NCBI GenBank assembly: GCA_030704845.1
Contig: JAUYKZ010000001.1
Coordinates: 621 to 64,620, forward strand
From: an archaeon
GTDB taxonomy: Archaea > Nanobdellota > Nanobdellia > Woesearchaeales > GW2011-AR9
Direction: 5' to 3'
Length of the DNA stretch: 64,000 bases
This document shows positions 946 through 35,868 of this stretch, piece after piece (the first letter of the stretch is position 1; the number at the start of each line of letters is the position of its first letter). The notes below the pieces were generated by a model that ran no database searches, had not been told where the DNA came from, and saw nothing but the letters and a program-made list of their open reading frames with translations. A program made the position numbers and the translations under genes.

Positions 946-2997
946 GTGATTGGGCATAATATTTATAAAGCATTAAGCTATTCTAAAACCATGCGTAAAA
1001 AGAGGTGTAATGTAGGTGAAGCTAGAGCTCTTTCTCTTAGAATTAACCCCGCAAAAAAAGGCCAGGTAACAATCTTTATCATACTTGGAATTCTTCTTGT
1101 TTTGGTTGCGATTCTTTACATTGCATTTCAAACTGAGATTGTAACTTTAACTCCTTCAGATATTATTCCAACTCAGAAAGGTAAAGTTGAAACTTTCATC
1201 TCTTCCTGTATTGAAAAAGTGGGTGATCAAGCTTTATTTTTAATTGGCTTACAAGGCGGATTTATTGAAGTTCCTTCCGAAATTAAATCTGACGGAGGTT
1301 CACATCTTAAACTTTCTCAGGATAATGTTGTACCATTCTGGGCGCAAGGACCGGTAACTTTTATTCCTCCGTTATCAGATATAAAATTAAGGGTTGATCG
1401 TTATGTTGAAGAAAATGTTCGTGATTGCTTAGTTAATTCCGAAGCATTCCAGGAATCTTATAATCTTCTTGAGAAAAGCGACATCACTGCCGATACTACT
1501 CTTGGTTCAAATAACGTTCAGTTTAACATTCGGTGGAACATTGAAGTTCGTAATAAAGATGGGGAAGTCGTAGCTGAACTAATCGACCATTCTGCTGAAT
1601 CTCCAATCCATTTCAAGAGTGCTTATGATCTTGCTACTCAAATTGTTACTCAGGAAATGCAGACCTTAAAATTGGAAGATCTTACCCAAGACTTGATTTC
1701 TTTAGAAGCTCCAAATGTTCCGGTTGCGGGAATTGAAGTAAGTTGCTCCCAGAAAAAATGGAAAGTAAGTAATGTTAAATCAGCTTTGAAAGAATTAATC
1801 CGAATAAATATTGGGCAATTAAAAGTTAGCGGCACTGAATTTGTTGAATTCCCCGACGAATTACCTTACTATCAGAATCATTATGTTTGGGATGTGGGAG
1901 AAGTTCCAAAAGATGTAAGCGCAAATTTCCAATTTGAAGAAACTTATCCATTCCAATTCCAAGTAACTCCTTCTGATGGTATTTCTCTTAAAAGTGATCA
2001 ACTTGGTGGAACAAGTTTACTTTCTGCGTTATGCATTCAATCCTGGAAATTTACTTACGATGTAACTTATCCAGTTCTGATAAAAGTTCGGGATGAAACT
2101 ACTGGTTATAATTTTAATATTGCCATGACTGTCCATTTAATCAGAAATATGCCTAACCGGAATGTTCCGTTACAAGCTCGCCCTTCATCTTCATTAGGAT
2201 TCCTTGATGATGAAGCGTTCTGTCAAAACAGAAGAATTCCGATGACTGTTGTTACGAATGAATTGGTGGAAAACAATTATGGTGTATATTTCACAGAACC
2301 TTTAGATGATGTAGATATCAGTTACACTTGCTTGAAATATCAATGTGAATATGATAAAACCGATCTTAACTTTGCTGAAAGAGGATATCAATCAGGATTC
2401 ACCACAAATTTCCCATATTGTGTTGGCGCAATTATGAGGGGAGAAAAAGAAGGATATAAAGAAGATTGGAAACGGGTAGTTACTCAATCAGGAGAAATTG
2501 TTGAATTAAATTTAGTTCCATTATATGACGTTCCTGCATCAAAGATTAAAGTTATCCAACATGAAGTTCGGGGAGATACTGTTCTTCCGGGAACTTCGCT
2601 TAATGAAGATTTAGCTGGTTCAATTCGAATTGCCTTTAGTAAACCGGGCAGTTTAACTCAAAATCAACAGATACCACCTCAGTTAAGACAACCATACCAC
2701 GAATCTAGAATTGGAATCTCTAAAGATATCGATCCTTCATTTGGCGATCGAGAGAAATTATCATTTTTAGCAAAAGCTGATTTCACTTATGAAGTTGACA
2801 TTCAACTTCTTGAAGGCGAAAAATTTGTTGGTGGCTATAAAGCTAATTGGACTGCTGATTGGTCAGCTTTAGAAAATGCGGAAGAAATTACATTTCATAT
2901 AGTTAATCTGAGAAATCCAAGTAATGAAGAAAGTTTCGAATTACTGCTCAACTTAGGCGAATTAAGTGCACAAGTACCTAAGCCGGAGATTAAATAA
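946..2997 (+). CDS. Hypothetical membrane-anchored protein with a large extracytoplasmic domain (683 aa; the true start may be the MRKKR Met near 991)
   Basis: Long ORF with a single N-terminal hydrophobic helix (VTIFIILGILLVLVAILYIAF) followed by a ~600-aa hydrophilic domain. It lies immediately upstream of, and co-directional with, the giant secreted protein. Confidence 0.6.
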   Translation: MIGHNIYKALSYSKTMRKKRCNVGEARALSLRINPAKKGQVTIFIILGILLVLVAILYIAFQTEIVTLTPSDIIPTQKGKVETFISSCIEKVGDQALFLIGLQGGFIEVPSEIKSDGGSHLKLSQDNVVPFWAQGPVTFIPPLSDIKLRVDRYVEENVRDCLVNSEAFQESYNLLEKSDITADTTLGSNNVQFNIRWNIEVRNKDGEVVAELIDHSAESPIHFKSAYDLATQIVTQEMQTLKLEDLTQDLISLEAPNVPVAGIEVSCSQKKWKVSNVKSALKELIRINIGQLKVSGTEFVEFPDELPYYQNHYVWDVGEVPKDVSANFQFEETYPFQFQVTPSDGISLKSDQLGGTSLLSALCIQSWKFTYDVTYPVLIKVRDETTGYNFNIAMTVHLIRNMPNRNVPLQARPSSSLGFLDDEAFCQNRRIPMTVVTNELVENNYGVYFTEPLDDVDISYTCLKYQCEYDKTDLNFAERGYQSGFTTNFPYCVGAIMRGEKEGYKEDWKRVVTQSGEIVELNLVPLYDVPASKIKVIQHEVRGDTVLPGTSLNEDLAGSIRIAFSKPGSLTQNQQIPPQLRQPYHESRIGISKDIDPSFGDREKLSFLAKADFTYEVDIQLLEGEKFVGGYKANWTADWSALENAEEITFHIVNLRNPSNEESFELLLNLGELSAQVPKPEIK

Positions 2998-3049
2998 GAA
3001 AAGATAAGTAGCTCAAATACTTCAACGTAACAAAAAAAGGAAAAGATAG

Positions 3050-6000
3050 ATGAAAACGACAAAAGGAAGATGGATGCGAATATTTTCTTTACTAGTTATC
3101 ATTCTATTTGTAAATCTTCCAATTGTTTCCGCCCTTGAGATATCAAATGTAAGGGCGGATAGTATCACCGAAACAAGTGCAGTCGTTAACTGGGAAACAG
3201 ATAGTAACGCTGACTCTTTTGTGAATTATGGACAAAGTAAAGACAATTTGGTATCAATTGGTGACGCATCCCAATTAATGAGTCATGCTCTTCCATTATC
3301 TGGCTTATCTTCAGATACAACTTATTATTTCTCAGTTGAAAGTAATAGTTTTGTAAGCGATAATGGTGGCGACTTATATTCTTTCAAGACGGCTGCTCCA
3401 GATACTGAAGCACCTCAAATTACTGCTGTCATTCCTGAATTTATTCAAGGAAGTAGATTAGATATAACTGGAAATGTCGAAACTGGTTCTCAGGTAAGAC
3501 TTTTCGTTAATGGTATTTTCTTACAAACGGCAAGTTCAGTTGCAGGCAAATTTACATTTCAAGGTGTATTATTAAAAGCAGATCAAGAAAATATTATTTC
3601 TCTTGAAGCAACTGATCCAGCTGGCAATTCTATGTCATTATCTGGAACCGTGTTTGCTGATACTTCTGCTCCTAAAATTACTCTCCCAGTAATCCCTGAA
3701 TTTAGTGATAGTAATTCATTTCAGTTGAAAGCCTCTTTATCTGAGAATTCCATGATTGAGATATTTAACGGTGATAAATCGGTTTCAAAAACTGAAGGAA
3801 CGTTAATCGATGTTACGATCTCTTTACAAGAAGGAGAAAATAATATCAAAATAGTTGTTTCTGATAAAGCTGGTTGGACTGCTGAAGAAAATTTTACGAT
3901 ACTCTCCGATACGAAACCGCCAACGATCACTTTCGATTTAACTAAAGGCACAGAATATTATGAAGGAAGAGCCGAAACGGATGTAACTGGTAAAACTGAA
4001 GCTGGCGCTAGTGTTTATCTTTACGTGTTTAGATCTTTCGGTGATGAATATAAAGCAGATTTCAAAAGAGCTTATGCGAAAACTATCGCTGACGAAAATG
4101 GCGAATTTAAATTCAGTGAGGTAAGTTTTCCTCCGCCTCCTTTTACAAGTATAACTGAACTTGCTCCAAGAGAAGTTCCAGCAGGATTACAAGAAGTATT
4201 AATTTCTCCTCTCGGTCTTATCGGGAATGAACAACGGAAAGGGTATAAAGTTTATTTGGTTGCGGAAGACAAATCAGGTAAAACTGCTTACGCTCAAAAA
4301 CAAATTAACATCAATACTTGTTTCTCGGCTGCAAGTGATTTCATTATTGATGAACAGATTCAGTTCCATGCTCCATTTAGGTTAGATCCGTCTTTAATGG
4401 AAGAAGGAAGAGAAGCAATTCAAGCTGTGTTTAATTTAAGTTACCGCGGAGATGCAATTGCTCCAATTAATACGGCTACAAATCAACCACAGGAAGCGTT
4501 CAGGATTCAAAGCGTAACATTCCAGAAAGCATGTACTCAAGCTATGTTGGATGAAGACGAATTTAAGTACGGATGTCAATTGTTGCCATCTTCATTAAGA
4601 TATCAAGCAAATGGAGATAAATCTGCTTATTATGTCACAGCTAATCTTAATCGAGCTTTAGATTTTATAGATAAGGAAGATAACGTTTGGGATGATTTCC
4701 AAAAACGTGAATTAAAAATGCCGGTGAAAGTAATTGTTAATTACCAAGAACGTGATGCTCAAGGTGGTTGGGAGCAACAGAAAACTCAAACTTCTTGTTA
4801 CGATTTAGGATATTTTGTTGATGTCCCAATAGAAAGTGAAAATTTAATCCCTGACTTTTTAGCAGAAGAAGGAGTAGATGCGCTTAATTTTACTATTGAA
4901 CAAATTGAAAATGTTAAACCTTACTTAAAAACAGCAATGATTGTTTCTGGTGTAAGTTGTATCGGTTCATTCTTGGTAAAACTAATTGCAAGATTATATA
5001 GAAATTTCATGGCAAACTTTGAACCTTGGTTAACTAGGATAAAAGGGGAAGATGAAAGATGTCCAAATATAGCTGGTCAAAATAAATTATATCTCGATAG
5101 CACAATTCAGCAATGGCAGGATTTGAAAAATCATCCTGAAGCAAATGGAAAAAGTGGTATTCCTGATTTAGATGCTGAAAAAAATTCTCTTAGTAAAAGA
5201 TGTCCGCAAACAGCAAGTGCGTGGGAAGTTGAGACTTATATCGATTTAGCGTATAGATTTACTTGTGACAGATTCTTCTGTAGATCTGTTCCAGCTGCTT
5301 GGACATCTAAAGAAACTGATGAAAAAATTCAAGGTGTTATCGCTGAACAAACCATGTGTACAGCTACCACTACCTGTTCATTCCTTGAACCAGTTGAGAA
5401 TTGCCAAGAGAAGTTGAAAACAAGTGTAGCTAACACCGAAAGAGCAAGAATATTGGAACAGGAAGGAAAATCTTTCACTTGTTATCTTAACAGACAGAAC
5501 GGATTATATTACACTGTTGAAGGAGATCCTCTACAAGAAGAACGGTTCATCTGGAAATTAGTCCCTGAAGAAACAATTAATAGTATTGGAACATTATCAC
5601 AACCAAATCTTCTTGCTTACAAACCAGAAGGATCACAGAACTTCTGTATCGCAACTGATTTAAGTTGTTCTAGTGCATGTAAACGAAAGAGTGGATATCA
5701 AGCGGTAACGGATGGATATACTTTAGAAAAACAAGGAGATAAAGTTGTTGTTGCAGGAAACGGCGGAGCTTGTTACCGTGAAGATCCAAAGGGGGATAGT
5801 ACAGTTCTAAGGAATGCTGGCGAAAATACTCTTCGTGATGCTGGCGGAGATAAAGTTGCTTTCGGATATACTAACGATTGTTTCGTTCAAGATCAGCCTG
5901 AACAATTATATCAATGTGTTTGTGAACCATCGAAAGCACAAGCTGGAGTTTCATTGAAAGGAGCAAGGGAAGCAGTTCGTGAAGTGAATGGTCAGACTGA

Positions 6001-8389
6001 AGAATGGGTATTCCGTCAAGATAGAGTTTATGCTGAATCAAAAGCAACAGCAGGAACGCATTACTCTAAAGATAGATATTATAGTGGAAGAGATTTCAGT
6101 GGAGCATTCGGAACAAATTATGCTCTTGATGCATTCAAGACTGAAGATTTTAGTACGGCAAGAGTCGATCCACATAACCAATTACTTGGAACTTTCCAAA
6201 GTATGTGTCTTCCTGGAATTTATGCAAGATTACAATTATTGCAAAGCATTTTGATGGGACTTAGAAATTGTATCATTGAAGCAAAATATACTGGATTCCA
6301 TGATGCAGGTATGTGTAAAACATTATTCACTCAATATGTCTGTGGTTTAATTTACAAAACAATATCTTATGCGGCAAGTAGTTGTTCACCACTTTCCTTG
6401 AAAGATGTTGGTGAAGATGATCAATTAAGTGCTATCGAAGCAGCTTTAGGTGCCGGTTCGAAAGCAATTCCTGCAACTTTAGATTCATCAATCCAAGAAG
6501 TGAAATCAGATTATGGAAATTCTGCATTAGATCAATATTTTGCATCCGGCAGTCAAGGATTTGCTGAATCGTTATGTTTAGCTGCGTTCGGTTATGACTT
6601 CCCTCTGGGCATGGACTTTATTCAAGATGCTGCTTACGCTTTCCCGACGGCGACAAATGTAATATTCCCAATTGCTGAAAGAGAATTGGCTACATTTGAT
6701 CCGGTGAAAGGAAGCGCGGTGTTCAATTATAATTTAGGTGGTACGATTCTTCCAGGTTGTAAAATTCAAAGTTATAGGACATCATTGAAATGTATCGGTC
6801 CAAATGATTTAGGTAAAGCTGGTGTTGATTGTTCCCAACAAAGTTGTGATTGTTTACAATCAACGGGAGATGTAACTGCCTTTGAAACTCAGAAATCATA
6901 TGTAATCCAAGGTGGAACTGGCGTGGGTGGTATTACTAAAGGACAGATGGTTGATCTTCCAATTCCATCGCCACAAAAAGTAACTAGTCCATTCAGGTAT
7001 GATCACGTGGTACTTGAATTAACTTTAGCTCAAGGAGAAAGTCCAGATACATGTTTCGATGAACAATATAGAACCGGTAACGGCGGAATTTTCTATTTCC
7101 CAATTCAAGATACTTCTCCTCCATTCGCGGTATCATGTCATGTGAACCTGAATAATGGTAAATTTGAATGTCCACAAATCAGTGCATTCTTTGGTGGAGG
7201 ACAAAGTTACTTCGAATACCCATTCATGCGTTGTGCGGATGCAAAGACGGGAGATTTCGTATCTTGTGATCAACCAAATCTTTTCATTAACAATGATCCA
7301 CAGAGAGATCAGATTGTGATTAAACCTTACTTAAATCTAGGAAACGAGAAAGCTTGTTTAAGAATTGAAGATGAAAGAAATTTAATTCAGCCGAGAATTA
7401 TTCCTCTTCCGGATGGTCTGCAAGGTCAGTATTCGCCGGTAATCACGTTAGGTCCAGTTACTGAGAATATGGTTTCTGGTGGTAGCGCAGCAACAATCAC
7501 CAAGAATACTGTGTTAAGCGATTCTGGGTGTGGTGGATTCCAGAACGGTGATTTGAATGTAATTACTCGTTCAGAAAAATCTGTAGCTAATACTAATTTA
7601 GAATTTAAATATGAAAGAAATGTTGAAGGATTGTATAAACTGGAAATTGGAACAACGGGAGTAACGTTAGATCCTGCTAGTAATAATAACAGATTTTTAG
7701 TAAATCAAAATAATGTTTGGAAAGGTGAAAAACAATTCATGACATTCCAAGAAGCTAACGAAGCAATTTTCTCTTATGAAGGATTTAGGTTCAGCAATGT
7801 ACTCGGTCAACCTATACCTAAAGTTGGTTCTGGTGGAAGTTGTATTTATCAAGCTCAATTCCCCAGATCGAATGTTGGACAAACTCAAGGCGGATTAAGA
7901 GTTACTGCTAAATTACTTCAAGCAGTTGGAGATAATTGTTATGAAGCAACTCAATTAATACCTAAATCTGATCTTGGTGTAAATCTCCACACTGAAAATA
8001 TTAGAATCCAACTTGAACCGGTTGAAGTTACGGTTGGTAAAAATCTTGCAGAAGATTTCTTTAACAGGAATTATGAAATTGTTTTAAGTAAAGCGGAAGC
8101 TATCGCTAAAAGAAAATCAGGTTCTTTAGAAGATGCGGAAGCTCTTTATTATTGGGTGTTGAGTTATGTTGCTCAGAAAGATGGCACAACTAAATATAAG
8201 GAGAATATAATCAGTTTACTTGATTTATTCTTCAAACGGGAAAGTAATCAAGGTAAAAGTGATCCTTACACGGAAGATGTTGTGAAGACCGGGGAGTATC
8301 AAATTGTTGAAAAGAATTTATGTTGTGTTGCAAAGAAGATTGGTACTGATAACAACTATGGTGTCTGTGAAGGGGTAGATTGTAAATAA
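3050..8389 (+). CDS. Giant secreted Cys-rich surface protein (1779 aa) with an N-terminal FN3/purple-acid-phosphatase-N-like domain and Ig-like repeats
   Basis: Uninterrupted 5.3-kb ORF with a signal peptide (MRIFSLLVIILFVNLPIVSALE). The ISNVRADSITETSAVVNWETDSNADSFVNYGQSKDNL segment matches the FN3/PAP-N consensus, followed by repeated ~90-aa beta-rich segments (ITAVIPEF..., ITLPVIPEF...). The C-terminal 1200 aa are very Cys-rich with no transmembrane helix. Confidence 0.8.
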   Translation: MKTTKGRWMRIFSLLVIILFVNLPIVSALEISNVRADSITETSAVVNWETDSNADSFVNYGQSKDNLVSIGDASQLMSHALPLSGLSSDTTYYFSVESNSFVSDNGGDLYSFKTAAPDTEAPQITAVIPEFIQGSRLDITGNVETGSQVRLFVNGIFLQTASSVAGKFTFQGVLLKADQENIISLEATDPAGNSMSLSGTVFADTSAPKITLPVIPEFSDSNSFQLKASLSENSMIEIFNGDKSVSKTEGTLIDVTISLQEGENNIKIVVSDKAGWTAEENFTILSDTKPPTITFDLTKGTEYYEGRAETDVTGKTEAGASVYLYVFRSFGDEYKADFKRAYAKTIADENGEFKFSEVSFPPPPFTSITELAPREVPAGLQEVLISPLGLIGNEQRKGYKVYLVAEDKSGKTAYAQKQININTCFSAASDFIIDEQIQFHAPFRLDPSLMEEGREAIQAVFNLSYRGDAIAPINTATNQPQEAFRIQSVTFQKACTQAMLDEDEFKYGCQLLPSSLRYQANGDKSAYYVTANLNRALDFIDKEDNVWDDFQKRELKMPVKVIVNYQERDAQGGWEQQKTQTSCYDLGYFVDVPIESENLIPDFLAEEGVDALNFTIEQIENVKPYLKTAMIVSGVSCIGSFLVKLIARLYRNFMANFEPWLTRIKGEDERCPNIAGQNKLYLDSTIQQWQDLKNHPEANGKSGIPDLDAEKNSLSKRCPQTASAWEVETYIDLAYRFTCDRFFCRSVPAAWTSKETDEKIQGVIAEQTMCTATTTCSFLEPVENCQEKLKTSVANTERARILEQEGKSFTCYLNRQNGLYYTVEGDPLQEERFIWKLVPEETINSIGTLSQPNLLAYKPEGSQNFCIATDLSCSSACKRKSGYQAVTDGYTLEKQGDKVVVAGNGGACYREDPKGDSTVLRNAGENTLRDAGGDKVAFGYTNDCFVQDQPEQLYQCVCEPSKAQAGVSLKGAREAVREVNGQTEEWVFRQDRVYAESKATAGTHYSKDRYYSGRDFSGAFGTNYALDAFKTEDFSTARVDPHNQLLGTFQSMCLPGIYARLQLLQSILMGLRNCIIEAKYTGFHDAGMCKTLFTQYVCGLIYKTISYAASSCSPLSLKDVGEDDQLSAIEAALGAGSKAIPATLDSSIQEVKSDYGNSALDQYFASGSQGFAESLCLAAFGYDFPLGMDFIQDAAYAFPTATNVIFPIAERELATFDPVKGSAVFNYNLGGTILPGCKIQSYRTSLKCIGPNDLGKAGVDCSQQSCDCLQSTGDVTAFETQKSYVIQGGTGVGGITKGQMVDLPIPSPQKVTSPFRYDHVVLELTLAQGESPDTCFDEQYRTGNGGIFYFPIQDTSPPFAVSCHVNLNNGKFECPQISAFFGGGQSYFEYPFMRCADAKTGDFVSCDQPNLFINNDPQRDQIVIKPYLNLGNEKACLRIEDERNLIQPRIIPLPDGLQGQYSPVITLGPVTENMVSGGSAATITKNTVLSDSGCGGFQNGDLNVITRSEKSVANTNLEFKYERNVEGLYKLEIGTTGVTLDPASNNNRFLVNQNNVWKGEKQFMTFQEANEAIFSYEGFRFSNVLGQPIPKVGSGGSCIYQAQFPRSNVGQTQGGLRVTAKLLQAVGDNCYEATQLIPKSDLGVNLHTENIRIQLEPVEVTVGKNLAEDFFNRNYEIVLSKAEAIAKRKSGSLEDAEALYYWVLSYVAQKDGTTKYKENIISLLDLFFKRESNQGKSDPYTEDVVKTGEYQIVEKNLCCVAKKIGTDNNYGVCEGVDCK

Positions 8390-8390
8390 A

Positions 8391-8957
8391 ATGTTGAAAC
8401 AAAAAAAAGGCGGGCTTGTAATTCAAGTTTTAGTATTGATGGTTCTGGTAGTAATTAGCAGCAGCGTTTTATTATTCCTAATTAATAAAGGCGTGATTAC
8501 TGTTAAAGAATCTGGACAAACAGAACCAATCCTTCAAGCAAATTTTTTACCAATCGCTAGAACTGGAACGGTGGCTGTTAAAGAATTTGCTTTCTGTAGT
8601 GATGTTAACGAAGATTTTGAATGTATCGGTCAGCGTTCACTGTTCCAGAAAGGAGATAAAGTTCACTTTAAGTTTGTTGTTGAAACTAATCCGTATGGGG
8701 GAGATGTCATCATTTTTCAGAATTACCGTTTAATTAATCCTAATGGGGTTATAATCTTGGAAGCTGAAGATATGAATAATTATCAGTATGATGCAAGAAG
8801 CGATAAAACATTGGAAGAAATAGTGTTTAAAGATTATATTATCACGGAAGAGAATGATATTCCTGGAACTTATAGGTTTGAATTACTTGTGAGCAATCCA
8901 TTATTAGAAAAGGATATAACTGTTACGGAGGAGTTCACTCTTGCTGGAAATGAATAA
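8391..8957 (+). CDS. Hypothetical membrane-anchored protein (188 aa)
   Basis: Starts 2 nt after the giant-protein stop. N-terminal transmembrane helix (LVIQVLVLMVLVVISSSVLLFLI). Overlaps the next gene by 17 nt, which suggests translational coupling. Confidence 0.55.
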   Translation: MLKQKKGGLVIQVLVLMVLVVISSSVLLFLINKGVITVKESGQTEPILQANFLPIARTGTVAVKEFAFCSDVNEDFECIGQRSLFQKGDKVHFKFVVETNPYGGDVIIFQNYRLINPNGVIILEAEDMNNYQYDARSDKTLEEIVFKDYIITEENDIPGTYRFELLVSNPLLEKDITVTEEFTLAGNE

Positions 8958-10647
8958 AATTTATTGGAAGAGAACTTTAGTATTACTTCTCCTACTTTCA
9001 ATAACATTAAGCATATCTGTATTTGCTGCAACTAAATCCCCTGAGGGATCAACAGCTAAGAGTATCAGTTTAGCTAGCGGAACAACTTGTAATAGTATCA
9101 CCCGATGTAAACAGATTCATCAAGCTTGGTTGCAGGTGTATGACTCTTTGGGTTACAGCAGGCTAGTGTTTAATCCGTCTTTAGGGAAATGGGTTAGTTT
9201 TGAGAGTGTTTATCTTCCCCAATTAGAAGATGCTCCATCTAGCACGGAAATTACCAATGAAGCAGAATCTTCAGAAGCAGTTAATCTTAATGAGATTAGT
9301 GGCAGGTATGCTGTTTTTATTAATGCTGCTGCTGGACATTTTGGAATCCAGCCGGCTTTAATTGCTGTTTTTATTAAGTATGAATCCGGGGGAAATCTTA
9401 AACCTTCCCCTACGGGTTGTCAAGGATTGATGCAGGTTTGTAACTGGAATGCTAATTATAATGGGTTCACCTCTGAGAATCCAAATATAAAAATTAAGGA
9501 TGATGCTCTCGATCCAGAAGCTAACATTTATGTGGGAACATACATATTGTCCCAGAAATTCAAAAGTGTTAGCGGATGTAAAGAAGGTAGTGATAGAATT
9601 AAATGTGTAATTGCAGCTTACAATGCGGGGGAAGGGCTGATTAATTATGCTACCAAGGGTTTTGAGGGTGAAGCAACTTGGCAGCAAGTAATAACCATAC
9701 TTCAAAATGAAGAGTTTGTGAAGGGATTAAAAGCATATTCTGATGAAAGATTTTGGATTAATTCGAATGGAGTAAACCAAACTTGGACTGATTCAGTTTC
9801 ATGTCAAGGTTTTAAAGATAAGGTTACTAGAAGAGGATGCAAGATGTACAATTTACAGTTTTATGTGAATAAAATCTTTGCTTCTGTATATGGAGCTTCT
9901 CAAGAACAGACTTCTTCAAGTGATGAAACAATTGCTACGGCAAGTGGCGTCGGTAAGAAAGTCTTACTAATTGGAGACTCTCATACGGCAGGTTATTATG
10001 GGGAATTACTCCATAACTCTTTGGTTAATGTAAATTATGAAGTGAGAACTTATGGTTGTGGTGGAAAAGTTGCAACAGCCTTTGCTAACAACAGGGAGGT
10101 TAGTTGTAGTCTGTCTTACAAATGGATTGGTAATGAAAAAACCTTGCTAACAAAACTCACTCCTAATTTTTTCCAGACTGAAATTAATTCATTCAATCCA
10201 GATATCGTTGTAATCAGTCTTGGGACAAATTATTGGCTCAGAGAAAGTAGTATTGCTAATCCAGGAAGCGTACATTATGCTTCTGTAAATTCATTATTGG
10301 ATAGTGCTCTAGGAAAAACTTGTTATTGGGTTGGGGCACCAGTGTCAACTATTAAATTTGGAGATAGTAAATTGAATTATGATGGTACTTGTACCAAAAA
10401 CCATCCCAATGATTATGAAACTAGTTGTTCTCTGGTGAATATACCTGGAATAAATCGGGGAGATATATACGATTATAATTTAGTTAATACAAATCTAAGA
10501 AAACTAGTTGAAGATAAAGGATGTAACTTTATAGACCCAACGCAGATTGCTGGTTTAACGGAAGATAAATTAAGAGACAAGTTACATTTTAATAATGACG
10601 GTTATACTATCTGGGCAAACTACGTCTTCAAGAAGATAATCAAGTAA
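8941..10647 (+). CDS. Secreted lytic transglycosylase (SLT domain) fused to a C-terminal SGNH/GDSL-type hydrolase domain
   Basis: Signal peptide is present. The SLT motifs are YESGGNL...GCQGLMQV and AYNAGEG. The C-terminal half carries the GDSH block (LLIGDSHTAGYYG) and the distal block (HFNNDGYTIWANYV) characteristic of SGNH hydrolases. Confidence 0.75.
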   Translation: MLEMNKIYWKRTLVLLLLLSITLSISVFAATKSPEGSTAKSISLASGTTCNSITRCKQIHQAWLQVYDSLGYSRLVFNPSLGKWVSFESVYLPQLEDAPSSTEITNEAESSEAVNLNEISGRYAVFINAAAGHFGIQPALIAVFIKYESGGNLKPSPTGCQGLMQVCNWNANYNGFTSENPNIKIKDDALDPEANIYVGTYILSQKFKSVSGCKEGSDRIKCVIAAYNAGEGLINYATKGFEGEATWQQVITILQNEEFVKGLKAYSDERFWINSNGVNQTWTDSVSCQGFKDKVTRRGCKMYNLQFYVNKIFASVYGASQEQTSSSDETIATASGVGKKVLLIGDSHTAGYYGELLHNSLVNVNYEVRTYGCGGKVATAFANNREVSCSLSYKWIGNEKTLLTKLTPNFFQTEINSFNPDIVVISLGTNYWLRESSIANPGSVHYASVNSLLDSALGKTCYWVGAPVSTIKFGDSKLNYDGTCTKNHPNDYETSCSLVNIPGINRGDIYDYNLVNTNLRKLVEDKGCNFIDPTQIAGLTEDKLRDKLHFNNDGYTIWANYVFKKIIK

Positions 10648-14658: not shown

Positions 14659-14806
14659 GCCCCAGTGGCTCAGCGGTTAGAGCATTCGGCTGTTAACCGG
14701 AGGGTCGTCGGTTCAAAACAGATCTCCCGGATCTGGTAGAGGGATTCGCGGTCACTCGCGTTCCCGCTCATAAGATTTGGAGATTGGGAAAGTCCGACCT
14801 GGGGCG
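14659..14806 (+). tRNA. tRNA-Asn (anticodon GUU) with a ~74-nt intron in the T-loop
   Basis: Acceptor GCCCCAG/CUGGGGC, D-arm GCUC-AGCGGUUAG-AGC, anticodon stem-loop UUCGG-CUGUUAA-CCGGA, variable loop GGGUC, T-stem GUCGG...CCGAC. The T-loop (UUCAAAA...U) is interrupted by 14719-14792. The intron ends can pair (CAGAUCUCC with GGAGAUUG), which is BHB-like. Confidence 0.75.
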
Positions 14807-14915: not shown

Positions 14916-15662
14916 ATGCGCAAACTCTCCTTGGTAGCTCTGGTCTTAAAATTTGGTTTAGGTCTAGCGAATGCTACACCTCCGGCTTTAGACCTTCCGA
15001 TAGTTAGTATTATGGGCGATTCACTTTCGGTAAGAGCCACTTCAAAAGGGGGATATGCAACTTATCTGCAGGATTTATGTTCTGATTTAGAAATTGATAC
15101 TTACGGGATTGGCGGACAAAATACTCGGCAGATGGTTAATCGTTTTAAGAAAGACATTGTCGATAAAACTCTTGGCAGTTATAGGATGTATGATGATGTT
15201 ATAATCTTTGCTGGGATAAATGATATTGCTATGATAGATAATGATTATGTTAAAACCGGCAAGGTTTGGTCTGAAGAAAGAGTAGATGAACATACTCTGG
15301 GAATCATAGAAAGACTAGACTCTATGTATAAAGAAGCAAGAGATTCCGGAATGAGGGTTATTGCGGTAACAATCACTCCTTGGGGCGGATATAAGGGAAA
15401 AGTTACAAGATACGGACAATCTCACTGGTCAGAAAATAGTCAGAAAGCGATAGATGCAATAAACTTGTGGCTTCGCTCAAAACCTGAAAATGTAGATGTC
15501 GTGATTGATGCTTATGATGTTTTGGAAGATTCTAATCGTCCAGATGCATTAAAGAAAGAATTTACCGGAGACCGACTTCATCTCAGTTCAAAAGGTAATA
15601 AAGTTCTTGCTAATGGAATCTATAATGCTGCATATCAGACAATCTGTTCACCAGATAATTAG
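14916..15662 (+). CDS. Secreted SGNH/GDSL-family hydrolase (esterase/lipase-like)
   Basis: Signal peptide, GDS block (IMGDSLS), and the C-terminal DRLHLSSKGNKVLANGI block with the catalytic Asp/His arrangement. Confidence 0.7.
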   Translation: MRKLSLVALVLKFGLGLANATPPALDLPIVSIMGDSLSVRATSKGGYATYLQDLCSDLEIDTYGIGGQNTRQMVNRFKKDIVDKTLGSYRMYDDVIIFAGINDIAMIDNDYVKTGKVWSEERVDEHTLGIIERLDSMYKEARDSGMRVIAVTITPWGGYKGKVTRYGQSHWSENSQKAIDAINLWLRSKPENVDVVIDAYDVLEDSNRPDALKKEFTGDRLHLSSKGNKVLANGIYNAAYQTICSPDN

Positions 15663-16685: not shown

Positions 16686-17516
16686 ATGAACAAAGTTACT
16701 CAATTTTTCTCATTTCTTGGAAGAGGTCTCGCTATGGGCATTGCTGACGTAATTCCTGGCATATCTGGGGGAACTATTGCCTTCGTAACCGGAATTTACG
16801 ATCGTTTAATCTCCAGTCTTAGTTTATTGAAATTTTCATTAATACCTCTTATCTTTAAAGGGAAATTTAAAGAATTTTCAAAACAGATTGATTTTGCTCT
16901 TTTCATTCCTTTGGGGATTGGAATTCTTACTTCAATATTTTTTTTCTCTGGCATAATCACTTCGCTTCTTATTAATCATCCTTCCATAACTTATTCCTTC
17001 TTTTTCGGATTAATCTTATCATCTGCGATTGTTTTATTGCACAAAATTAAGCGAATTAATGTTGAAAATGTAATCTTTTTAATTCTTGGTTTTTTGTTTG
17101 CTTACAGCATTTCTAGTGTACATATTCTAGAAATAACTAATTCTTTACCGATTATCTTTTTCTCGGGAGCCATAGCAATCTCTGCAATGTTACTTCCTGG
17201 GATCTCTGGTGCATTTATTTTACTATTGCTTAACCAATACCAATTCATCTTAAATTCGGTGCAAGACCTTAATTTCGCAGTGTTAATAGTTTTTGCTCTG
17301 GGAGCAATAACTGGTTTACTTGCCTTTTCCAGATTTATCCATTATCTCTTAACAAGATACAAATCTATCGCTCTAGCTGCTTTAGTCGGGGTAATGCTTG
17401 GGGCACTGAAATCTCCTTTACAACAGATAACTTTTGGAACAAATACTGGTTATTTGGTTCTTGCAACCTTGTTAGGTGTGCTAATCGTTTTTATTGTTCA
17501 GAAATTTGATAATTGA
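16686..17516 (+). CDS. DUF368-family membrane protein (putative polyprenyl-phosphate transporter)
   Basis: The GISGGTIAFVTGIYDRLI motif is repeated later as GISGAFILLLL. Two-fold internal symmetry and 7-8 transmembrane helices are typical of DUF368. Confidence 0.7.
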   Translation: MNKVTQFFSFLGRGLAMGIADVIPGISGGTIAFVTGIYDRLISSLSLLKFSLIPLIFKGKFKEFSKQIDFALFIPLGIGILTSIFFFSGIITSLLINHPSITYSFFFGLILSSAIVLLHKIKRINVENVIFLILGFLFAYSISSVHILEITNSLPIIFFSGAIAISAMLLPGISGAFILLLLNQYQFILNSVQDLNFAVLIVFALGAITGLLAFSRFIHYLLTRYKSIALAALVGVMLGALKSPLQQITFGTNTGYLVLATLLGVLIVFIVQKFDN

Positions 17517-24293: not shown

Positions 24294-25307
24294 TTAAGAA
24301 ATTTCTAACAACCTAAACAACTCGCCAGTATCACTTCCAATAATCAAATCAGTTTTCTCTTTAATGATCTCGTTAGTTATAATCTCTGGGAATTGTAACG
24401 GATTATCACCACAAGAAGTTCCAGGCCGACATTGTGAAGAAGTATATCCCTGAAGTTCTTTCACAATTCTTAGAACACACTGTTCATTGCAATTATAATC
24501 TTCTTTTAAGCCCATAATCCATAATGCTCCTATTGTGTGAGAATCTCTTTTTTCCCTTTCACTTAAGGAGACATCTCCTTGTTTTAATCTTAAATAATAA
24601 TTGTTATCTAGCATGGATCCATCATCCATTCTTATACCTCCTGACGAAAGTAAATCCGTTCCAGTTTCTCTGAGGTATGCATCTCCTTTCTTAGCAAATT
24701 CTTTTGCATTACCCTCCAAATCCATTGCCACAACATCACAATTTACTCTTTCATTTACTTCAATCGCTATAGCTTCACTAAACCAGTTAGGATGTCCTCT
24801 TAACATGTAATATAAGAAGAAATGGGTTGTTTCATGTTCTTCAGCAATGATATCTGAAAGATCTTTCGCTACTTTCTCTCCAAATTGGGTGTTACCAAAA
24901 AGATTTGATTGAGAAATCCCAGACCAACTAGTACTCCCACCGGTAGTGCAGCAACATCCTTCTTCTTGTTCACATTCAGGTTTTTCAATTGATGATATTT
25001 TGTAAATAACTCTCGGTGCAGAGAACTGAAAATGGTTTTCTAGACATTGAACAACTTTGGTTTGTAATTGTAAATAATATTGTAACAATTCTGAATTGCA
25101 ATTGTTATCTTGGCATAACATTTCCACGTAGCTGTTACATAATTCTCCTTGGCATTGAGTTTCCGATAAAGTATCCGTTTTGGTTACTTTTTTAATCGGC
25201 TGATTTAATGTTGAATAACTTACGATAGCGACGATTATCAGTGCTAGAAATAACATTGCTAAGATTATTTTTTTCCATTTCATTTTGATTAACAAGATGT
25301 TAATCAT
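24294..25307 (-). CDS. Secreted Cys-rich protein with an HExxH motif (possible zinc metalloprotease-like); the likely start is the MKWKK Met near 25283
   Basis: Signal peptide or transmembrane helix, many Cys pairs, and EHETTHFF (HExxH). Confidence 0.5.
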   Translation of the reverse strand: MINILLIKMKWKKIILAMLFLALIIVAIVSYSTLNQPIKKVTKTDTLSETQCQGELCNSYVEMLCQDNNCNSELLQYYLQLQTKVVQCLENHFQFSAPRVIYKISSIEKPECEQEEGCCCTTGGSTSWSGISQSNLFGNTQFGEKVAKDLSDIIAEEHETTHFFLYYMLRGHPNWFSEAIAIEVNERVNCDVVAMDLEGNAKEFAKKGDAYLRETGTDLLSSGGIRMDDGSMLDNNYYLRLKQGDVSLSEREKRDSHTIGALWIMGLKEDYNCNEQCVLRIVKELQGYTSSQCRPGTSCGDNPLQFPEIITNEIIKEKTDLIIGSDTGELFRLLEIS

Positions 25308-29881: not shown

Positions 29882-30484
29882 ATGAAAAATAAATTAATGA
29901 ATCCTAAATTAACTAATAAATCAGTTTACCTTATTATCCTATTCTCCTTAATATCCTTGTTATTCTTAACTCTGTTATCCTATAAAATTGTTCTTTTTTT
30001 AACACCTTTCACGGACTCACAGCAAAAAACAATTGATTTTCTTTATGATCATCTTAATGACGATAACCAATTAGATTTACAATACGCTTCTGATGAGTAT
30101 TCTCATCTTCTTGATGTAAAAAGAATAATGAACATAGCAAATGTTATTTTTTATCTCTCTTTGCTTGCTTTCACTTCAATTATCACTCTTACTAAAAGAG
30201 ACCCCGATCTTCAAAGAAAAATGTTTAAGACTGCCGGAATAACAACCATTTCCGTGTTATTATTACTTGTTATCCTCTCTTTATTTGCTTTTAATGGTCT
30301 TTTTAATTCATTTCATCAGATTTTCTTCCCGCAAGGAAATTGGATATTTGCGAATGATTCTCTTCTTATTACAACCTTTCCGACCTCGTTTTTCATAAAA
30401 ATGGCAAGAAATATCTTTATTCTTTCATTAACAAGCGGAATCTTTTTATTCTCTTTATCTTTACTAAAGAAAAATGTTCGTTAA
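29882..30484 (+). CDS. Hypothetical integral membrane protein (4 transmembrane helices)
   Basis: Four hydrophobic helices. Confidence 0.45.
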   Translation: MKNKLMNPKLTNKSVYLIILFSLISLLFLTLLSYKIVLFLTPFTDSQQKTIDFLYDHLNDDNQLDLQYASDEYSHLLDVKRIMNIANVIFYLSLLAFTSIITLTKRDPDLQRKMFKTAGITTISVLLLLVILSLFAFNGLFNSFHQIFFPQGNWIFANDSLLITTFPTSFFIKMARNIFILSLTSGIFLFSLSLLKKNVR

Positions 30485-35022: not shown

Positions 35023-35868
35023 TTATAAAAAATAGAGACCAATGTGGTACATTTTAACTATTAAGAGTACAATAAATCCTAATAAGAAGCTTGGTACAAA
35101 AGGAACACCTTCTTTAATAAGAACGCTAGTAAGTTTCTTTTCTCGATAAAATTTCTGTAATTTTTGCAGATGTCTTTTTTCGATAGTTCTCTTTGTAACA
35201 ATGATTTCTTTACCTACCACGACTTCTTCAGCTAACCAATCGCCTTCTGTAACATCTGAAATCTTTTTCCGTTGCAGGAAACAACTATCTTCAACTGCAT
35301 TTACAAATAAAAACAAATAGAACAAAGCTGGAGGAAAAAACATTAATGGCCAAATTGTGGGGTAAAAGAATGTAAATATTAAAGTCGCTACAAACAGAAG
35401 CATGACTATACTATGAACAATCCATTGCTGTTTAATTTTTTCTTTCCATTCTTTAACAAATGTTTCTCTTTTTTTAATAGCCAGGAATCCCATCCAAAGT
35501 ACTCCGTAAATCGCGCCAAGGAATAAAAGACCGATGAAAAATATAACCAAATTGAAACTTTCAAGACTTAAAGGGAGGTTAATTCCAATAGCCGCGCCCA
35601 TGCCCATTAATAATTTACTATCTCCACCGCCCCATTGATTAGAATAATAAAACAGAACGGCAATTAAAAAACAAAGAATGAACCCAAGAAAACCACTTAC
35701 AATAATATGCCAATCAACAATTACCGAAAAAATTCCCCTTATCCCAAGCACAGCGAAAAGAAAACCGTAATTTAACCAATCTGGGATTTCCCTAGTTTTA
35801 AGGTCGCTATATGAGGATAATAGCAAAACTAGAATGGTAATCGTGATTATTATAGTCTCAAAAAGCAT
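35023..35868 (-). CDS. Prepilin/preflagellin peptidase (A24 family, PibD/FlaK-like)
   Basis: Polytopic membrane protein with a first catalytic Asp in SDLKTREIPD and a second in WGGGDSKLL. Confidence 0.7.
   Translation of the reverse strand: MLFETIIITITILVLLLSSYSDLKTREIPDWLNYGFLFAVLGIRGIFSVIVDWHIIVSGFLGFILCFLIAVLFYYSNQWGGGDSKLLMGMGAAIGINLPLSLESFNLVIFFIGLLFLGAIYGVLWMGFLAIKKRETFVKEWKEKIKQQWIVHSIVMLLFVATLIFTFFYPTIWPLMFFPPALFYLFLFVNAVEDSCFLQRKKISDVTEGDWLAEEVVVGKEIIVTKRTIEKRHLQKLQKFYREKKLTSVLIKEGVPFVPSFLLGFIVLLIVKMYHIGLYFL

What the first reader, a model, noticed from the sequence alone, without database searches (positions are those of the whole stretch)
946..10647. Co-directional surface cassette with a giant adhesin-like protein and a murein hydrolase
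Four tightly spaced or overlapping genes run on one strand:
- a 683-aa protein anchored by one transmembrane helix;
- a 1779-aa signal-peptide protein (FN3/PAP-N domain, Ig-like repeats, very Cys-rich body);
- a 188-aa membrane protein starting 2 nt after the giant gene;
- a secreted SLT lytic transglycosylase fused to an SGNH hydrolase, overlapping the membrane protein by 17 nt.

Archaea have no murein, so a surface apparatus ending in a peptidoglycan-cleaving enzyme, in a small AT-rich archaeal genome, looks like a host-attachment or cell-wall-breaching module of an episymbiont. Giant Cys-rich surface proteins are typical of DPANN archaea but are essentially uncharacterised.
Basis: partly seen in the sequence, partly recalled or inferred. 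Interest (0 to 1): 0.85.

Follow-up and report, generated by a model that had tools for sequence, protein, structure and literature searches.

The report
Archaeal cassette with swappable murein hydrolases
A four-gene block found in hundreds of tiny Woesearchaeota archaea joins three unknown surface proteins to a secreted, species-variable enzyme that cuts bacterial cell walls, so these archaea probably carry a built-in tool for attacking or feeding on bacteria.

Summary
Four co-directional, tightly packed genes lie at 946-10647 in a Woesearchaeota-type archaeal contig. The last gene encodes an SLT lytic transglycosylase with an intact catalytic Glu, fused to an SGNH hydrolase with an intact Ser/Asp/His set.

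The order g1-g2-g3 is kept in every one of about 60 related loci that are long enough. At least 428 species genomes encode a g1 relative.

- **Anchors.** g1 starts at ATG 991 (668 aa) and carries an archaeal prepilin-type signal (KKG|QVTIF...). g3 looks pilin-like too, and the window encodes a prepilin peptidase.
- **Variable slot.** The fourth position holds secreted enzymes built from at least ten different murein-cutting domain families.
- **Tag.** All of these enzymes share a roughly 45-aa module that Pfam does not model. It occurs nowhere else in about 3600 neighbouring ORFs. A reverse search starting from the module returned only this cassette (9 of 9 testable loci).

The giant protein's Cys-rich core has no relative among solved structures.

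Best reading, at moderate confidence: a conserved surface scaffold that displays plug-in murein hydrolases against bacteria. Murein hydrolases in these archaea were already reported. I found no description of the cassette or the module.

The parts
963..970 (+). TATA-box-like element (TTTATAAA) about 25 nt upstream of ATG 991; likely promoter of a leaderless or short-leader cassette transcript
   Evidence: Read directly from the sequence. It lies downstream of the GTG 946 start, which argues for ATG 991. Function as a promoter is inferred.
991..2997 (+). g1: 668-aa (683 aa if counted from GTG 946) membrane-anchored, disulfide-bonded surface protein of an orphan family
991..1128 (+). g1 N-terminal class III (prepilin-type) signal: basic leader, KKG|QVTIF, 19-residue hydrophobic helix
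   Evidence: Family consensus MYKKR...KKGQVTIFIILG. Hydropathy 3.26. Detected by the motif scan.
3050..8389 (+). g2: 1779-aa Sec-exported giant protein with no membrane anchor
   Evidence: About 95 full-length homologues at 35-59% identity. 513 clusters at 50% identity in 1.84 billion representatives. No C-terminal TM segment in any of 78 homologues.
3161..3919 (+). g2 N-terminal FN3/PAP-N domain (aa 38-114) and Bap-like Ig domains (aa ~132-290)
   Evidence: Pfam PF16656 at 31.6 bits against a cut-off of 30; Big_13/Glucodextran_B below their cut-offs. PDB profile hit to biofilm-associated surface protein 7dm0, E 4e-8.
4250..7489 (+). g2 Cys-rich conserved core (aa 401-1480), an orphan fold. 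It includes a 60-residue helix (aa 602-661, nt 4853-5032) with a semi-hydrophobic centre.
8391..8957 (+). g3: 188-aa pilin-like or signal-anchored small protein: N-terminal KKG|xxxx(E/Q), a hydrophobic helix, then a beta-rich domain with one invariant Cys pair
   Evidence: Homologues lie in the same position in about 50 loci. Alignment A6 has Glu at +5 in 20 of 28 sequences and Gln in 5. No Pfam, NCBIfam or PDB match.
8941..10647 (+). g4: secreted SLT-SGNH murein hydrolase (NCBI start ATG 8950), the variable 'position-4' enzyme of the cassette
   Evidence: Pfam. Only 15 homologues in 5.8 billion proteins. Sec signal.
9085..9219 (+). g4 aa 49-93: cassette-specific ~45-aa module (C..xRC.EID.VW ... 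VWD ... W..F..VY); candidate docking or targeting module
   Evidence: A locally iterated HMM finds it once in 42 ORFs. All 42 are the secreted enzyme downstream of g3: the next gene in most loci, or the one after an intervening enolase gene in L052 and L061. It occurs in none of the other ~3600 ORFs. It is also present in 6-7 truncated position-4 ORFs. A reverse search from the module in metagenomes returned the cassette in 9 of 9 testable loci. Pfam has no match to this stretch.
9319..9681 (+). g4 SLT (family 1 lytic transglycosylase) domain, aa 127-247, catalytic E148
   Evidence: Alignment to Slt70 (1qsa) puts E148 on E478, and MltC-like 9vi7 scores E 6.7e-6. ES148, GLMQ162 and AYNAG226 are present.
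9961..10626 (+). g4 SGNH/GDSL hydrolase domain, aa 341-562
   Evidence: PF13472 at 33.4 bits against a cut-off of 32.9. GDS345-347, G428xN430 and D546xxH549 are present. No solved relative by sequence.
35023..35868 (-). Archaeal type IV prepilin peptidase (A24), the candidate processing enzyme for g1 and perhaps g3. It is an accessory, not part of the cassette.
   Evidence: Peptidase_A24 E 4e-14 plus Arc_PepC_II. It is flanked by ordinary pilin-like ORFs.

Best explanation
The four genes form one operon-like unit that builds a cell-surface apparatus directed at bacterial peptidoglycan.

**Proposed assembly.**
- g1 and g3 insert in the archaeal membrane through N-terminal prepilin-type hydrophobic helices. 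g1 is probably processed by the A24 peptidase encoded in the same window.
- Together they hold the anchorless, disulfide-stabilised giant protein g2 on the surface.
- The Sec-exported enzyme in position 4 joins this scaffold through its ~45-aa module.

**Proposed action.** In this genome the SGNH esterase would clear ester substituents such as MurNAc O-acetyl groups. The SLT domain would then cleave MurNAc-GlcNAc bonds, opening the sacculus of a contacted bacterium. In other species the same slot carries amidases, lysozymes, endopeptidases or deacetylases, presumably matched to other wall chemistries.

**Shown.**
- Conserved gene order and tight coupling.
- Domain content and intact catalytic residues.
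- The module is restricted to position-4 proteins.
- Prepilin-like N-termini.
- g2 has no anchor of its own.

**Inferred.**
- Physical complex formation.
- The docking role of the module.
- Contact-dependent action on living bacteria.
For: **Synteny.**
- g1-g2-g3 is present in all of about 60 loci long enough to test, at 25-53% identity.
- At least 428 species genomes have a g1 relative.

**Coupling.**
- In the window there is a 1-nt gap and then an 8- or 17-nt overlap.
- In most relatives position 4 starts 3 nt before the end of g3.

**The position-4 slot.**
- It is always a Sec-signal, Cys-rich protein.
- 19 of 31 individually scanned examples carry a murein-active domain above the Pfam cut-off, and 2 more carry one just below it.
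- The families are SLT, Amidase_2, GH25, Phage_lysozyme2, Peptidase_M15_4, M23, M74 and Polysacc_deac_1, with Glucosaminidase and Hydrolase_2 just below cut-off, plus 3D.

**The module.**
- It is unique to position-4 proteins.
- The reverse search returned the cassette in 9 of 9 testable loci.
- It co-occurs with g3 in 44-45 of 47 loci.

**Catalytic residues.** The SLT Glu and motifs are intact, as is the SGNH triad.

**Enzyme pairing.** O-acetylation blocks lytic transglycosylases, and the de-O-acetylase Ape1 works in a complex with LtgA in Neisseria (PMC7083599).

**Anchoring.**
- g2 has no anchor in 78 homologues.
- g1 and g3 have prepilin-like N-termini.
- An A24 peptidase is encoded in the window.

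**Target.** Archaea lack murein; that rests on established knowledge. Pfam matches that this search filed under peptidoglycan work (GDSL, Polysacc_deac_1, DUF218, VCA0040-like) do occur, but no murein-synthesis gene turned up among the roughly 38 window ORFs scanned.
Against: - No direct evidence that the four proteins interact.
- A mirror-tree test of the module against g3 is weak (Spearman 0.38; partial 0.23 given g1).
- PAC2 upstream and bPH/Fpg downstream are also often syntenic, so part of the conservation reflects general genome collinearity.
- g1 and g2 are conserved at housekeeping-like levels with a non-variable FN3/Ig end. That fits a structural envelope role as well as a host-contact role.
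- About one third of position-4 proteins show no recognised murein-active domain. They carry only GDSL, FGE-sulfatase-like, DUF2272, DUF218 or phosphoesterase domains, or nothing.
- Divergent lineages keep g1-g2 but have a different small membrane protein and no recognisable hydrolase.
- No host is known.
Confidence: 0.5

Rival explanations
1. Type IV pilus tip complex. g1 and g3 are minor pilins that prime a pilus and present the non-pilin giant g2 at its tip, as PilY1/PilC is presented in bacteria. The hydrolase rides on or accompanies the tip, so that the fibre can reach and pierce a bacterial wall. This is a more specific geometry of the main model.
For: - g1 fits the archaeal class III signal pattern (K-G-Q-V-T-I followed by a hydrophobic helix).
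- g3 has G/A|xxxxE with Glu at +5 in 20 of 28 homologues, the hallmark of bacterial type IV pilins, and is of pilin size.
- A prepilin peptidase and two ordinary pilin-like genes lie in the same window.
- Minor-pilin plus large-adhesin operons placed apart from the assembly genes are the rule in bacterial type IV pili (general knowledge).
- Archaeal type IV filament loci often carry large adhesin-like proteins (bioRxiv 10.64898/2026.04.22.720090).
Against: - No assembly ATPase or platform protein lies in the cassette, nor among the roughly 38 window ORFs scanned.
- At +1, g3 has G, R or K, which does not fit the FlaFind pattern as I recall it.
- g1 (about 640 aa mature) is far larger than known pilins. 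Its model has a broken N-terminal helix (39-67 and 77-102) rather than one long alpha-1 helix.
- No PilY1/PilC-like domain appears in g2.
- Class III signals are also used by non-filament surface proteins in archaea (general knowledge).
Confidence: 0.2
2. Envelope scaffold plus free exoenzyme. g1-g3 are housekeeping cell-envelope proteins: an S-layer-like canopy (g2) on membrane stalks (g1, g3), comparable to SlaA/SlaB. The hydrolase is simply a co-expressed, released enzyme used to scavenge peptidoglycan debris for amino sugars and amino acids, or to kill competitors. No host contact is involved.
For: - g1 and g2 are near-universal in the clade, uniform in length and as conserved as neighbouring housekeeping genes.
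- Free secreted peptidoglycan hydrolases that kill bacteria are documented in other archaea (PMC12352652).
- Peptidoglycan necromass has been proposed as a DPANN nutrient (PMC11537232).
Against: - It does not explain why every position-4 enzyme carries the same cassette-restricted module whatever its catalytic domains.
- It does not explain why that gene is translationally coupled to g3.
- g2 matches no S-layer structure. It also lacks the C-terminal anchor or sorting signal common in archaeal S-layer proteins (plus general knowledge).
- S-layer proteins usually diverge faster than this.
Confidence: 0.2
3. The clustering is inherited genome collinearity with no functional link. The SLT-SGNH gene merely sits next to three unrelated surface-protein genes.
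For: Flanking PAC2, bPH and Fpg genes are also conserved in position in many relatives.
Against: - The flanks break in many loci and in the distant ones while g1-g2(-g3) stay together.
- Position 4 is replaced by non-homologous enzymes of the same biochemical theme, always bearing the same module.
- In L052, L061 and L076 an enolase gene intervenes, yet a secreted enzyme still follows it. It carries the module clearly in L052 and L061 and only weakly in L076.
- The reverse search from the module finds only cassettes.
Confidence: 0.03

Closest known systems
[quoted passage not shown] 2021, fam00969, PMC8204110; Vigneron et al. 2022, PMC9723730)
   Same: The same clade, the same GH23/SLT domain in a secreted archaeal protein, and the same proposed target (bacterial walls).
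   Different: Those reports treat the enzyme alone. Here it is one interchangeable occupant of the fourth slot of a conserved cassette, marked by a dedicated ~45-aa module. At 568 aa this example is small, and it is fused to SGNH.
Family 1 lytic transglycosylases (E. coli Slt70, MltC)
   Same: Catalytic Glu in an ES motif, GLMQ and AYNAG motifs, and Pfam SLT well above its cut-off.
   Different: Encoded by an organism without murein. No superhelical U/L domains of Slt70 and no lipobox. Fused to SGNH and to the cassette module.
Neisseria LtgA-Ape1 pair (lytic transglycosylase plus peptidoglycan de-O-acetylase; PMC7083599)
   Same: A lytic transglycosylase working with an esterase that removes O-acetyl groups which would otherwise block it. 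Here the two activities would sit on one polypeptide.
   Different: The SGNH domain of g4 has no detectable sequence relative among solved structures, so Ape1-like specificity is inference. The pair would act on foreign walls, not the cell's own.
Bacterial type IV pilus minor-pilin/PilY1 priming and tip complex (general knowledge)
   Same: An operon of prepilin-type proteins plus one large Sec-exported non-pilin protein, encoded apart from the assembly machinery.
   Different: No PilY1 or PilC domain. g1 is ten times the size of a minor pilin. The system is archaeal, and a wall hydrolase is attached.
Cellulosome-type enzyme display (dockerin-tagged enzymes on a surface scaffoldin; general knowledge)
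   Same: One short conserved module on otherwise diverse, multi-domain polysaccharide-degrading enzymes, next to genes for a large anchored scaffold.
   Different: No sequence or fold relation was shown. There is one enzyme per locus, not many. Binding of the module to the scaffold is untested, and the substrate is murein.
Sulfolobales SlaA/SlaB two-component S-layer
   Different: g2 does not match SlaA or any other S-layer structure. g1 is anchored at its N-terminus, whereas SlaB as I recall it is anchored at its C-terminus. A third protein and a hydrolase are always attached.
Surface toolkits of episymbiotic or predatory CPR bacteria (Vampirococcus lugosii, PMC8080830; Saccharibacteria type IV pili, PMC9894109)
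   Same: An ultrasmall cell with a reduced genome, giant surface proteins, pili and secreted murein hydrolases proposed to breach a bacterial host.
   Different: In CPR these genes are scattered and the cells have murein of their own. Here they are one conserved archaeal cassette built from orphan protein families.

Membership tests
Family 1 lytic transglycosylase (Pfam SLT, GH23) | Profile match above the curated threshold | tested here: met
   PF01464 at 55.7 bits against a cut-off of 21.3, aa 127-247.
Family 1 lytic transglycosylase (Pfam SLT, GH23) | Catalytic Glu in the E-S motif, plus the G-L-M-Q and A-Y-N-x-G motifs | tested here: met
   E148-S149 aligns with Slt70 E478-S479. GLMQ is at 162 and AYNAG at 226.
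Family 1 lytic transglycosylase (Pfam SLT, GH23) | Cleaves MurNAc-GlcNAc bonds with formation of 1,6-anhydro-MurNAc | not testable with these tools
   Needs an enzyme assay on sacculi.
SGNH/GDSL hydrolase | Conserved blocks I (GDS), III (GxN) and V (DxxH) | tested here: met
   GDS345-347, G428-T-N430 and D546-K-L-H549. PF13472 at 33.4 bits against a cut-off of 32.9.
O-acetylpeptidoglycan esterase (Ape1-like) | Sequence or structural relation to Ape1, or activity on O-acetylated murein | tested here: not met
   phmmer of aa 334-568 against all PDB sequences found nothing at E <= 10. Substrate specificity therefore remains inference from the fusion to SLT.
Archaeal class III (prepilin-type) signal peptide protein | N-terminal basic leader, a [KR][GA] cleavage motif, then about 20 hydrophobic residues (FlaFind-type pattern, recalled from memory) | tested here: met
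   g1 has KKG|QVTIFIILGILLVLVAILYIAF, conserved in 121 homologues. g3 has KKG|GLVIQ followed by a hydrophobic helix, but its +1 residue (G, R, K or S) falls outside the recalled pattern, so g3 is only partly met.
Archaeal class III (prepilin-type) signal peptide protein | A cognate A24 prepilin peptidase in the genome | tested here: met
   Peptidase_A24 plus Arc_PepC_II at 35023-35868(-).
Type IV filament (pilus) system | Assembly ATPase and platform protein associated with the pilin genes | tested here: not met
   None in the cassette, in its conserved flanks, or among the roughly 38 window ORFs scanned. The rest of the genome was not available.
Type IV filament (pilus) system | Pilin fold: a long N-terminal alpha-1 helix packed on a beta-sheet | tested here: inconclusive
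PilY1/PilC-type pilus tip adhesin | C-terminal PilY1/PilC beta-propeller domain | tested here: not met
Archaeal S-layer protein | Structural similarity to known S-layer proteins, or a C-terminal anchor or sorting signal | tested here: not met
   There are no S-layer chains among the g2 hits, and no C-terminal hydrophobic segment in 78 homologues. S-layer proteins are structurally diverse, so this does not exclude a lattice role.
FN3 / purple acid phosphatase N-terminal domain | Profile match above the curated threshold | tested here: met
   PF16656 at 31.6 bits against a cut-off of 30, aa 38-114 of g2.
Docking-module enzyme display (cellulosome-like) or polymorphic effector slot | One conserved short module shared by enzymes with otherwise unrelated catalytic domains | tested here: met
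   The module was found once in each of 42 complete and 6-7 truncated position-4 ORFs and nowhere else. Catalytic domains come from at least 10 families.
Docking-module enzyme display (cellulosome-like) or polymorphic effector slot | The module binds a cognate receptor on the scaffold | not testable with these tools
   No multimer prediction was available. The mirror-tree signal is weak.

The most novel reading that the evidence does not exclude
Woesearchaeales as a whole possess a dedicated, previously undescribed cross-domain attack organelle. Two prepilin-anchored proteins and a giant protein of novel fold would form a contact apparatus. Species-specific murein-degrading enzymes would be plugged into it through a new ~45-aa docking module. 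Most members of this very abundant archaeal order would then live as episymbionts or predators of Bacteria.
Probability: 0.3. Interest if true: 0.88.

Novelty: new variant of a known kind. Interest (0 to 1): 0.68.

Why it matters
Woesearchaeales are among the most widespread uncultured archaea, and neither their hosts nor their way of life is known.

Secreted murein hydrolases had been noted in some genomes. What is added here is a fixed genetic context present in at least 428 species. It has three orphan surface proteins that are good candidates for the contact machinery. It also has a sequence tag, the ~45-aa module, that identifies the wall-degrading enzyme of each species whatever its catalytic type.

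This makes the question "do these archaea attack bacteria, and how?" directly testable:
- the module and g1-g3 are concrete targets for antibodies, FISH-coupled imaging, pull-downs and metatranscriptomic tracking;
- the enzyme repertoire per species may predict host wall chemistry.

It also offers a source of diverse archaeal bacteriolytic enzymes.

Tried and rejected
**Searches for a known family that found nothing.**
- Pfam, NCBIfam and PDB-sequence searches gave nothing for g1 or g3, and nothing for g2 beyond its FN3/Ig end.

- The afdb50 library was not available.
- The bacterial sigma-70 promoter and terminator scan is not meaningful for an archaeon and showed little enrichment: 44 sites against 34.7 +/- 6.4 expected.
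- ARAGORN found no tRNA, although Rfam finds two.

**Ideas tested and dropped.**
- A viral or mobile origin: no g1 relative in 2.9 million viral contigs.
- The internal hydrophobic stretch of g2 (aa 629-647) as a transmembrane helix: hydrophobicity is not conserved (median 1.59, minimum 0.75), and it lies inside a 60-residue helix of the model.
- A mirror-tree test for the module's partner was weak.
- The paralogous upstream cassettes and the downstream proteins of the divergent lineages had no Pfam domains.

**Other.**
- The metagenome search with the broad module alignment failed for lack of a conserved stretch. A narrower alignment worked.
- Six literature searches found no description of the cassette, the g1/g2/g3 families or the module. 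Two of them were poorly targeted.

Full report
**1.

The window has four co-directional ORFs at exactly the stated coordinates:
- g1: 946-2997;
- g2: 3050-8389;
- g3: 8391-8957;
- g4: 8941-10647.

Spacing is 52 nt, then 1 nt, then a 17-nt overlap.

Domains and topology:
- Pfam finds SLT (E 4.5e-15) and Lipase_GDSL_2 (E 8e-8) in g4.
- In g2 it finds an FN3/purple-acid-phosphatase N-terminal domain plus weak Ig-like hits.
- It finds nothing in g1 or g3.
- g1 and g3 each have one N-terminal hydrophobic helix. g2 and g4 have Sec-type signals.

The body of g2 (aa 401-1779) holds all 44 of its cysteines, 3.2% against 1.1% in the other ORFs.

The contig is archaeal:
- it is identical to an NCBI MAG record named 'archaeon';
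- it carries PAC2, GatE-type, ATP-dependent ligase and archaeal prepilin peptidase genes;
- it carries an intron-bearing tRNA.

Two corrections:
- g1 most likely starts at ATG 991 (668 aa). M16 is nearly invariant in 121 homologues, and a TATA-like TTTATAAA lies at 963-970, downstream of the GTG.
- NCBI starts g4 at ATG 8950.

**2. The enzyme looks active**
- g4 E148-S149 aligns with the catalytic E478-S479 of E. coli Slt70. The GLMQ and AYNAG motifs of family 1 lytic transglycosylases are present.
- The SGNH domain keeps GDS (345-347), GxN (428-430) and DxxH (546-549).
- O-acetylation of MurNAc blocks lytic transglycosylases, and in Neisseria the de-O-acetylase Ape1 works in complex with LtgA (PMC7083599). 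An SLT-SGNH fusion therefore makes biochemical sense.
- The g4 SGNH domain has no detectable relative among solved structures, so this specificity is inferred.

**3. The cassette is conserved far beyond this genome**
- g2 has about 95 full-length homologues at 35-59% identity, in MAGs named Woesearchaeota or Nanoarchaeota.
- g2 also matches 513 clusters at 50% identity in a library of 1.84 billion representatives. The named distant members are again Woesearchaeota.
- g1 has more than 260 homologues at about 50% identity over 98% of its length.
- In every locus long enough to test (about 60), g1 is followed directly by g2. In the main clade, g2 is followed by g3.
- The flanking PAC2, bPH and Fpg genes are often syntenic too, so some conservation is plain collinearity. 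But the flanks change in many loci and in the distant ones while the block stays together.
- No relative exists in 2.9 million viral contigs.

**4. Position 4 is a variable slot with a constant theme**

The gene after g3 usually starts 3 nt before the end of g3. It always encodes a 390-1361-aa protein with a Sec signal and 1.5-4.4% Cys. It is poorly conserved: g4 itself has only 15 homologues in 5.8 billion proteins.

Among 44 position-4/5 proteins, Pfam finds:

| Pfam family | Members |
|---|---|
| Lipase_GDSL_2 | 12 |
| SLT | 11 |
| FGE-sulfatase-like | 11 |
| Amidase_2 | 7 |
| DUF2272 | 6 |
| Peptidase_M15_4 | 3 |
| Exo_endo_phos | 3 |
| Metallophos | 3 |
| Polysacc_deac_1 | 2 |
| Phage_lysozyme2 | 2 |
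| Glucosaminidase | 2 |
| Hydrolase_2 | 2 |
| GH25 | 1 |
| Peptidase_M74 | 1 |

- Individual scans add Peptidase_M23. One further locus has Polysacc_deac_1 + 3D, followed by GDSL + DUF218 + Peptidase_M15_4.
- Of 31 proteins scanned individually, 19 carry a murein-active domain above the Pfam cut-off and 2 more carry one just below it.
- The enzymes together cover glycan, amide and peptide bonds of murein as well as its deacetylation. A slot repeatedly refilled with non-homologous enzymes for the same substrate is strong evidence that the output of the cassette is murein degradation.
- Archaea have no murein, and these enzyme classes do not act on pseudomurein (general knowledge). The substrate must therefore be bacterial.

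**5. A cassette-specific module**

All position-4 proteins share a ~45-aa segment, whatever their catalytic domains. The consensus is C..xRC.EID.VW ... [VI][WF]D ... W..F..VY. In the window it is g4 aa 49-93, nt 9085-9219.
- It sits at very different positions in the protein (aa 32 to 709) and is often followed by a Pro/Thr-rich linker.
- A locally iterated HMM finds it exactly once in 42 ORFs, with individual E-values of 6e-6 to 3e-20.
- All 42 are the secreted enzyme downstream of g3: the next gene in most loci, or the one after an intervening enolase gene in L052 and L061.
- It occurs in none of the other roughly 3600 ORFs of 85 loci plus the window.
- Six truncated position-4 ORFs have it as well, and a seventh has it weakly. 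That gives 44-45 of 47 loci with any sequence after g3.
- Pfam has no model for it.
- As an independent test I searched metagenome contigs starting from the module alone. Ten loci were confirmed. In all nine with upstream sequence, g3 lies immediately upstream, and g2 and g1 lie further upstream wherever the contig reaches. This test samples only one subclass of the module.
- Weak module-like motifs also follow g2 in divergent, g3-less lineages.

The simplest reading is a targeting or docking module that ties the variable enzyme to the constant part of the cassette. A murein-binding role is an alternative. A mirror-tree comparison slightly favours g3 over g2 as the co-evolving partner, but it is weak.

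**6. The three constant proteins**

*g1*
- The family N-terminus is MYKKR...KKG|QVTIFIILG. This is an archaeal class III (prepilin-type) signal as I recall the pattern.
- The window encodes an A24 prepilin peptidase with the archaeal C-terminal domain, next to two ordinary pilin-like ORFs.
- Eight Cys are invariant.
- The AF2 model is confident (pLDDT 88.5): TM helix, second helix, an alpha/beta domain, then beta-sandwich domains.

*g3*
- The N-terminus is M..KKG|xxxx(E/Q) followed by a hydrophobic helix. Glu is at +5 in 20 of 28 homologues and Gln in 5. Then comes a ~140-aa beta-rich domain with one invariant Cys pair.
- This resembles a bacterial-type pilin signature, but the +1 residue does not fit the archaeal pattern.

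*g2*
- It has a Sec signal, an FN3 domain and Bap-like Ig domains.
- These are followed by a 1,100-aa core with 23 invariant Cys.
- The model is of moderate confidence (pLDDT 74) and mixes long helices with sandwiches.
- None of 78 homologues has a membrane anchor. The internal hydrophobic stretch is not consistently TM-like. g2 must therefore be held by partners or released.
- Conservation is even along g2. The FN3/Ig end is not hypervariable (40-50% identity), and the least conserved parts are aa 800-1000 and 1400-1779.

**7. Most likely mechanism and its rivals**

I commit to a surface scaffold, with confidence about 0.5. g1 and g3 would be anchored by prepilin-type helices and would hold the anchorless g2. 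The scaffold would display a module-tagged murein hydrolase for action on bacterial walls on contact.

Rivals:
- **Pilus tip complex.** The same parts mounted as a type IV pilus tip complex. The signals and the peptidase favour it. The lack of any ATPase or platform gene nearby, the size of g1 and the absence of a PilY1-like domain count against it.
- **Envelope scaffold with a free enzyme.** An S-layer-like envelope with a merely co-expressed enzyme used for scavenging or antagonism. The housekeeping-like conservation and the SlaB hit favour it. The module, the coupling to g3 and the lack of any S-layer match count against it.
- **Pure collinearity.** This is essentially excluded.

None of the protein-protein contacts has been shown.

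**8. Comparison with what is known, and novelty**

Extracellular murein transglycosylases in Woesearchaeota and Pacearchaeota, and the idea that they point to bacterial hosts or prey, are published (PMC8204110, PMC9723730). Peptidoglycan hydrolases of other archaea have been shown to kill bacteria (PMC12352652).

Six full-text searches found no description of the following:
- the conserved g1-g2-g3 context;
- the prepilin-type anchoring;
- the slot-like exchange of murein hydrolase types;
- the shared module.

The library lacks most subscription journals, so absence from it is not proof of novelty.

Functional analogies are the minor-pilin/PilY1 operons of bacterial type IV pili, dockerin-tagged enzyme display, and the surface toolkits of CPR episymbionts (PMC8080830, PMC9894109). 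Membership in any of these families is not supported.

I class the finding as a new variant of a known kind. About 0.3 probability remains that it is a new, order-wide cross-domain attack apparatus.

Noticed in passing
window 32223-35868 (- strand): An archaeal type IV prepilin peptidase gene (35023-35868) lies next to two ordinary pilin-like ORFs: 34390-34962 'MNNRG|SLELS...' and 32223-32834 'MKRG|SIGLS...'. No assembly ATPase or platform gene was seen among the neighbours scanned.
   Followed up: partly
window 14916-15662 (+): A second, stand-alone secreted SGNH/GDSL hydrolase (248 aa, signal peptide, Lipase_GDSL_2 E 8e-14) lies 4 kb downstream of the cassette.
   Followed up: no
window 24294-25307 (-) and 32858-34123 (+): Two further secreted orphan proteins have the highest Cys content in the window (4.2% and 4.5%) and no Pfam match.
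   Followed up: no
window 16686-17516, 29882-30484, 42289-43380, 48401-49540: Bacterial-type genes sit in an archaeal contig: a DUF368/VCA0040-like undecaprenyl-phosphate translocase-like protein, a Lit-like lipoprotein transacylase, AsnA, and a queuine tRNA-ribosyltransferase.
   Followed up: no
window 14664-14725 and 38450-38551: Rfam finds two tRNA genes that ARAGORN missed entirely. The second is 102 nt and so probably carries an intron.
   Followed up: no
L072:1698-9998, L073:2063-9737, L083:2431-9969: Divergent Woesearchaeota carry a second, paralogous cassette directly upstream of g1-g2. It consists of a ~760-aa g1 paralogue with the same KKGQITIFII N-terminus, two large secreted orphan proteins (~1030 and 490-800 aa) and a ~270-aa membrane protein. 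None has a Pfam domain. In these lineages g3 is replaced by a ~260-280-aa membrane protein, and no recognisable hydrolase follows.
   Followed up: partly
L052:18211-19473, L061:8468-9769, L076:18403-19704: In three loci an enolase gene is inserted between g3 and the secreted hydrolase. The hydrolase carries the module clearly in L052 and L061 but only weakly in L076. In several other loci a ~410-aa ORF follows the hydrolase; I did not scan it, but in the one such locus with annotation the gene after the cassette is enolase.
   Followed up: partly
L056:17474-21936: One lineage has a different 175-aa membrane protein in place of g3. It is followed by a 1312-aa secreted protein with a Peptidase_M74 (murein endopeptidase) domain, so the murein link does not strictly need a g3 orthologue.
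   Followed up: partly
Genome-contig loci L008, L011, L012, L016-L020 and others: Many public genome records that hold the cassette are titled 'uncultured Methanosarcinales archaeon', although their cassette and flanking genes match Woesearchaeota/Nanoarchaeia. The taxonomic labels are probably wrong.
   Followed up: no
position-4 proteins of L009-L011, L017, L020, L022, L025, L027, L036, L041, L074: FGE-sulfatase-like (lectin-fold) domains and phosphoesterase domains (Exo_endo_phos, Metallophos) recur beside the murein hydrolase domains. They might target phosphodiester-linked wall polymers such as teichoic acids, but this is unexplained.
   Followed up: no
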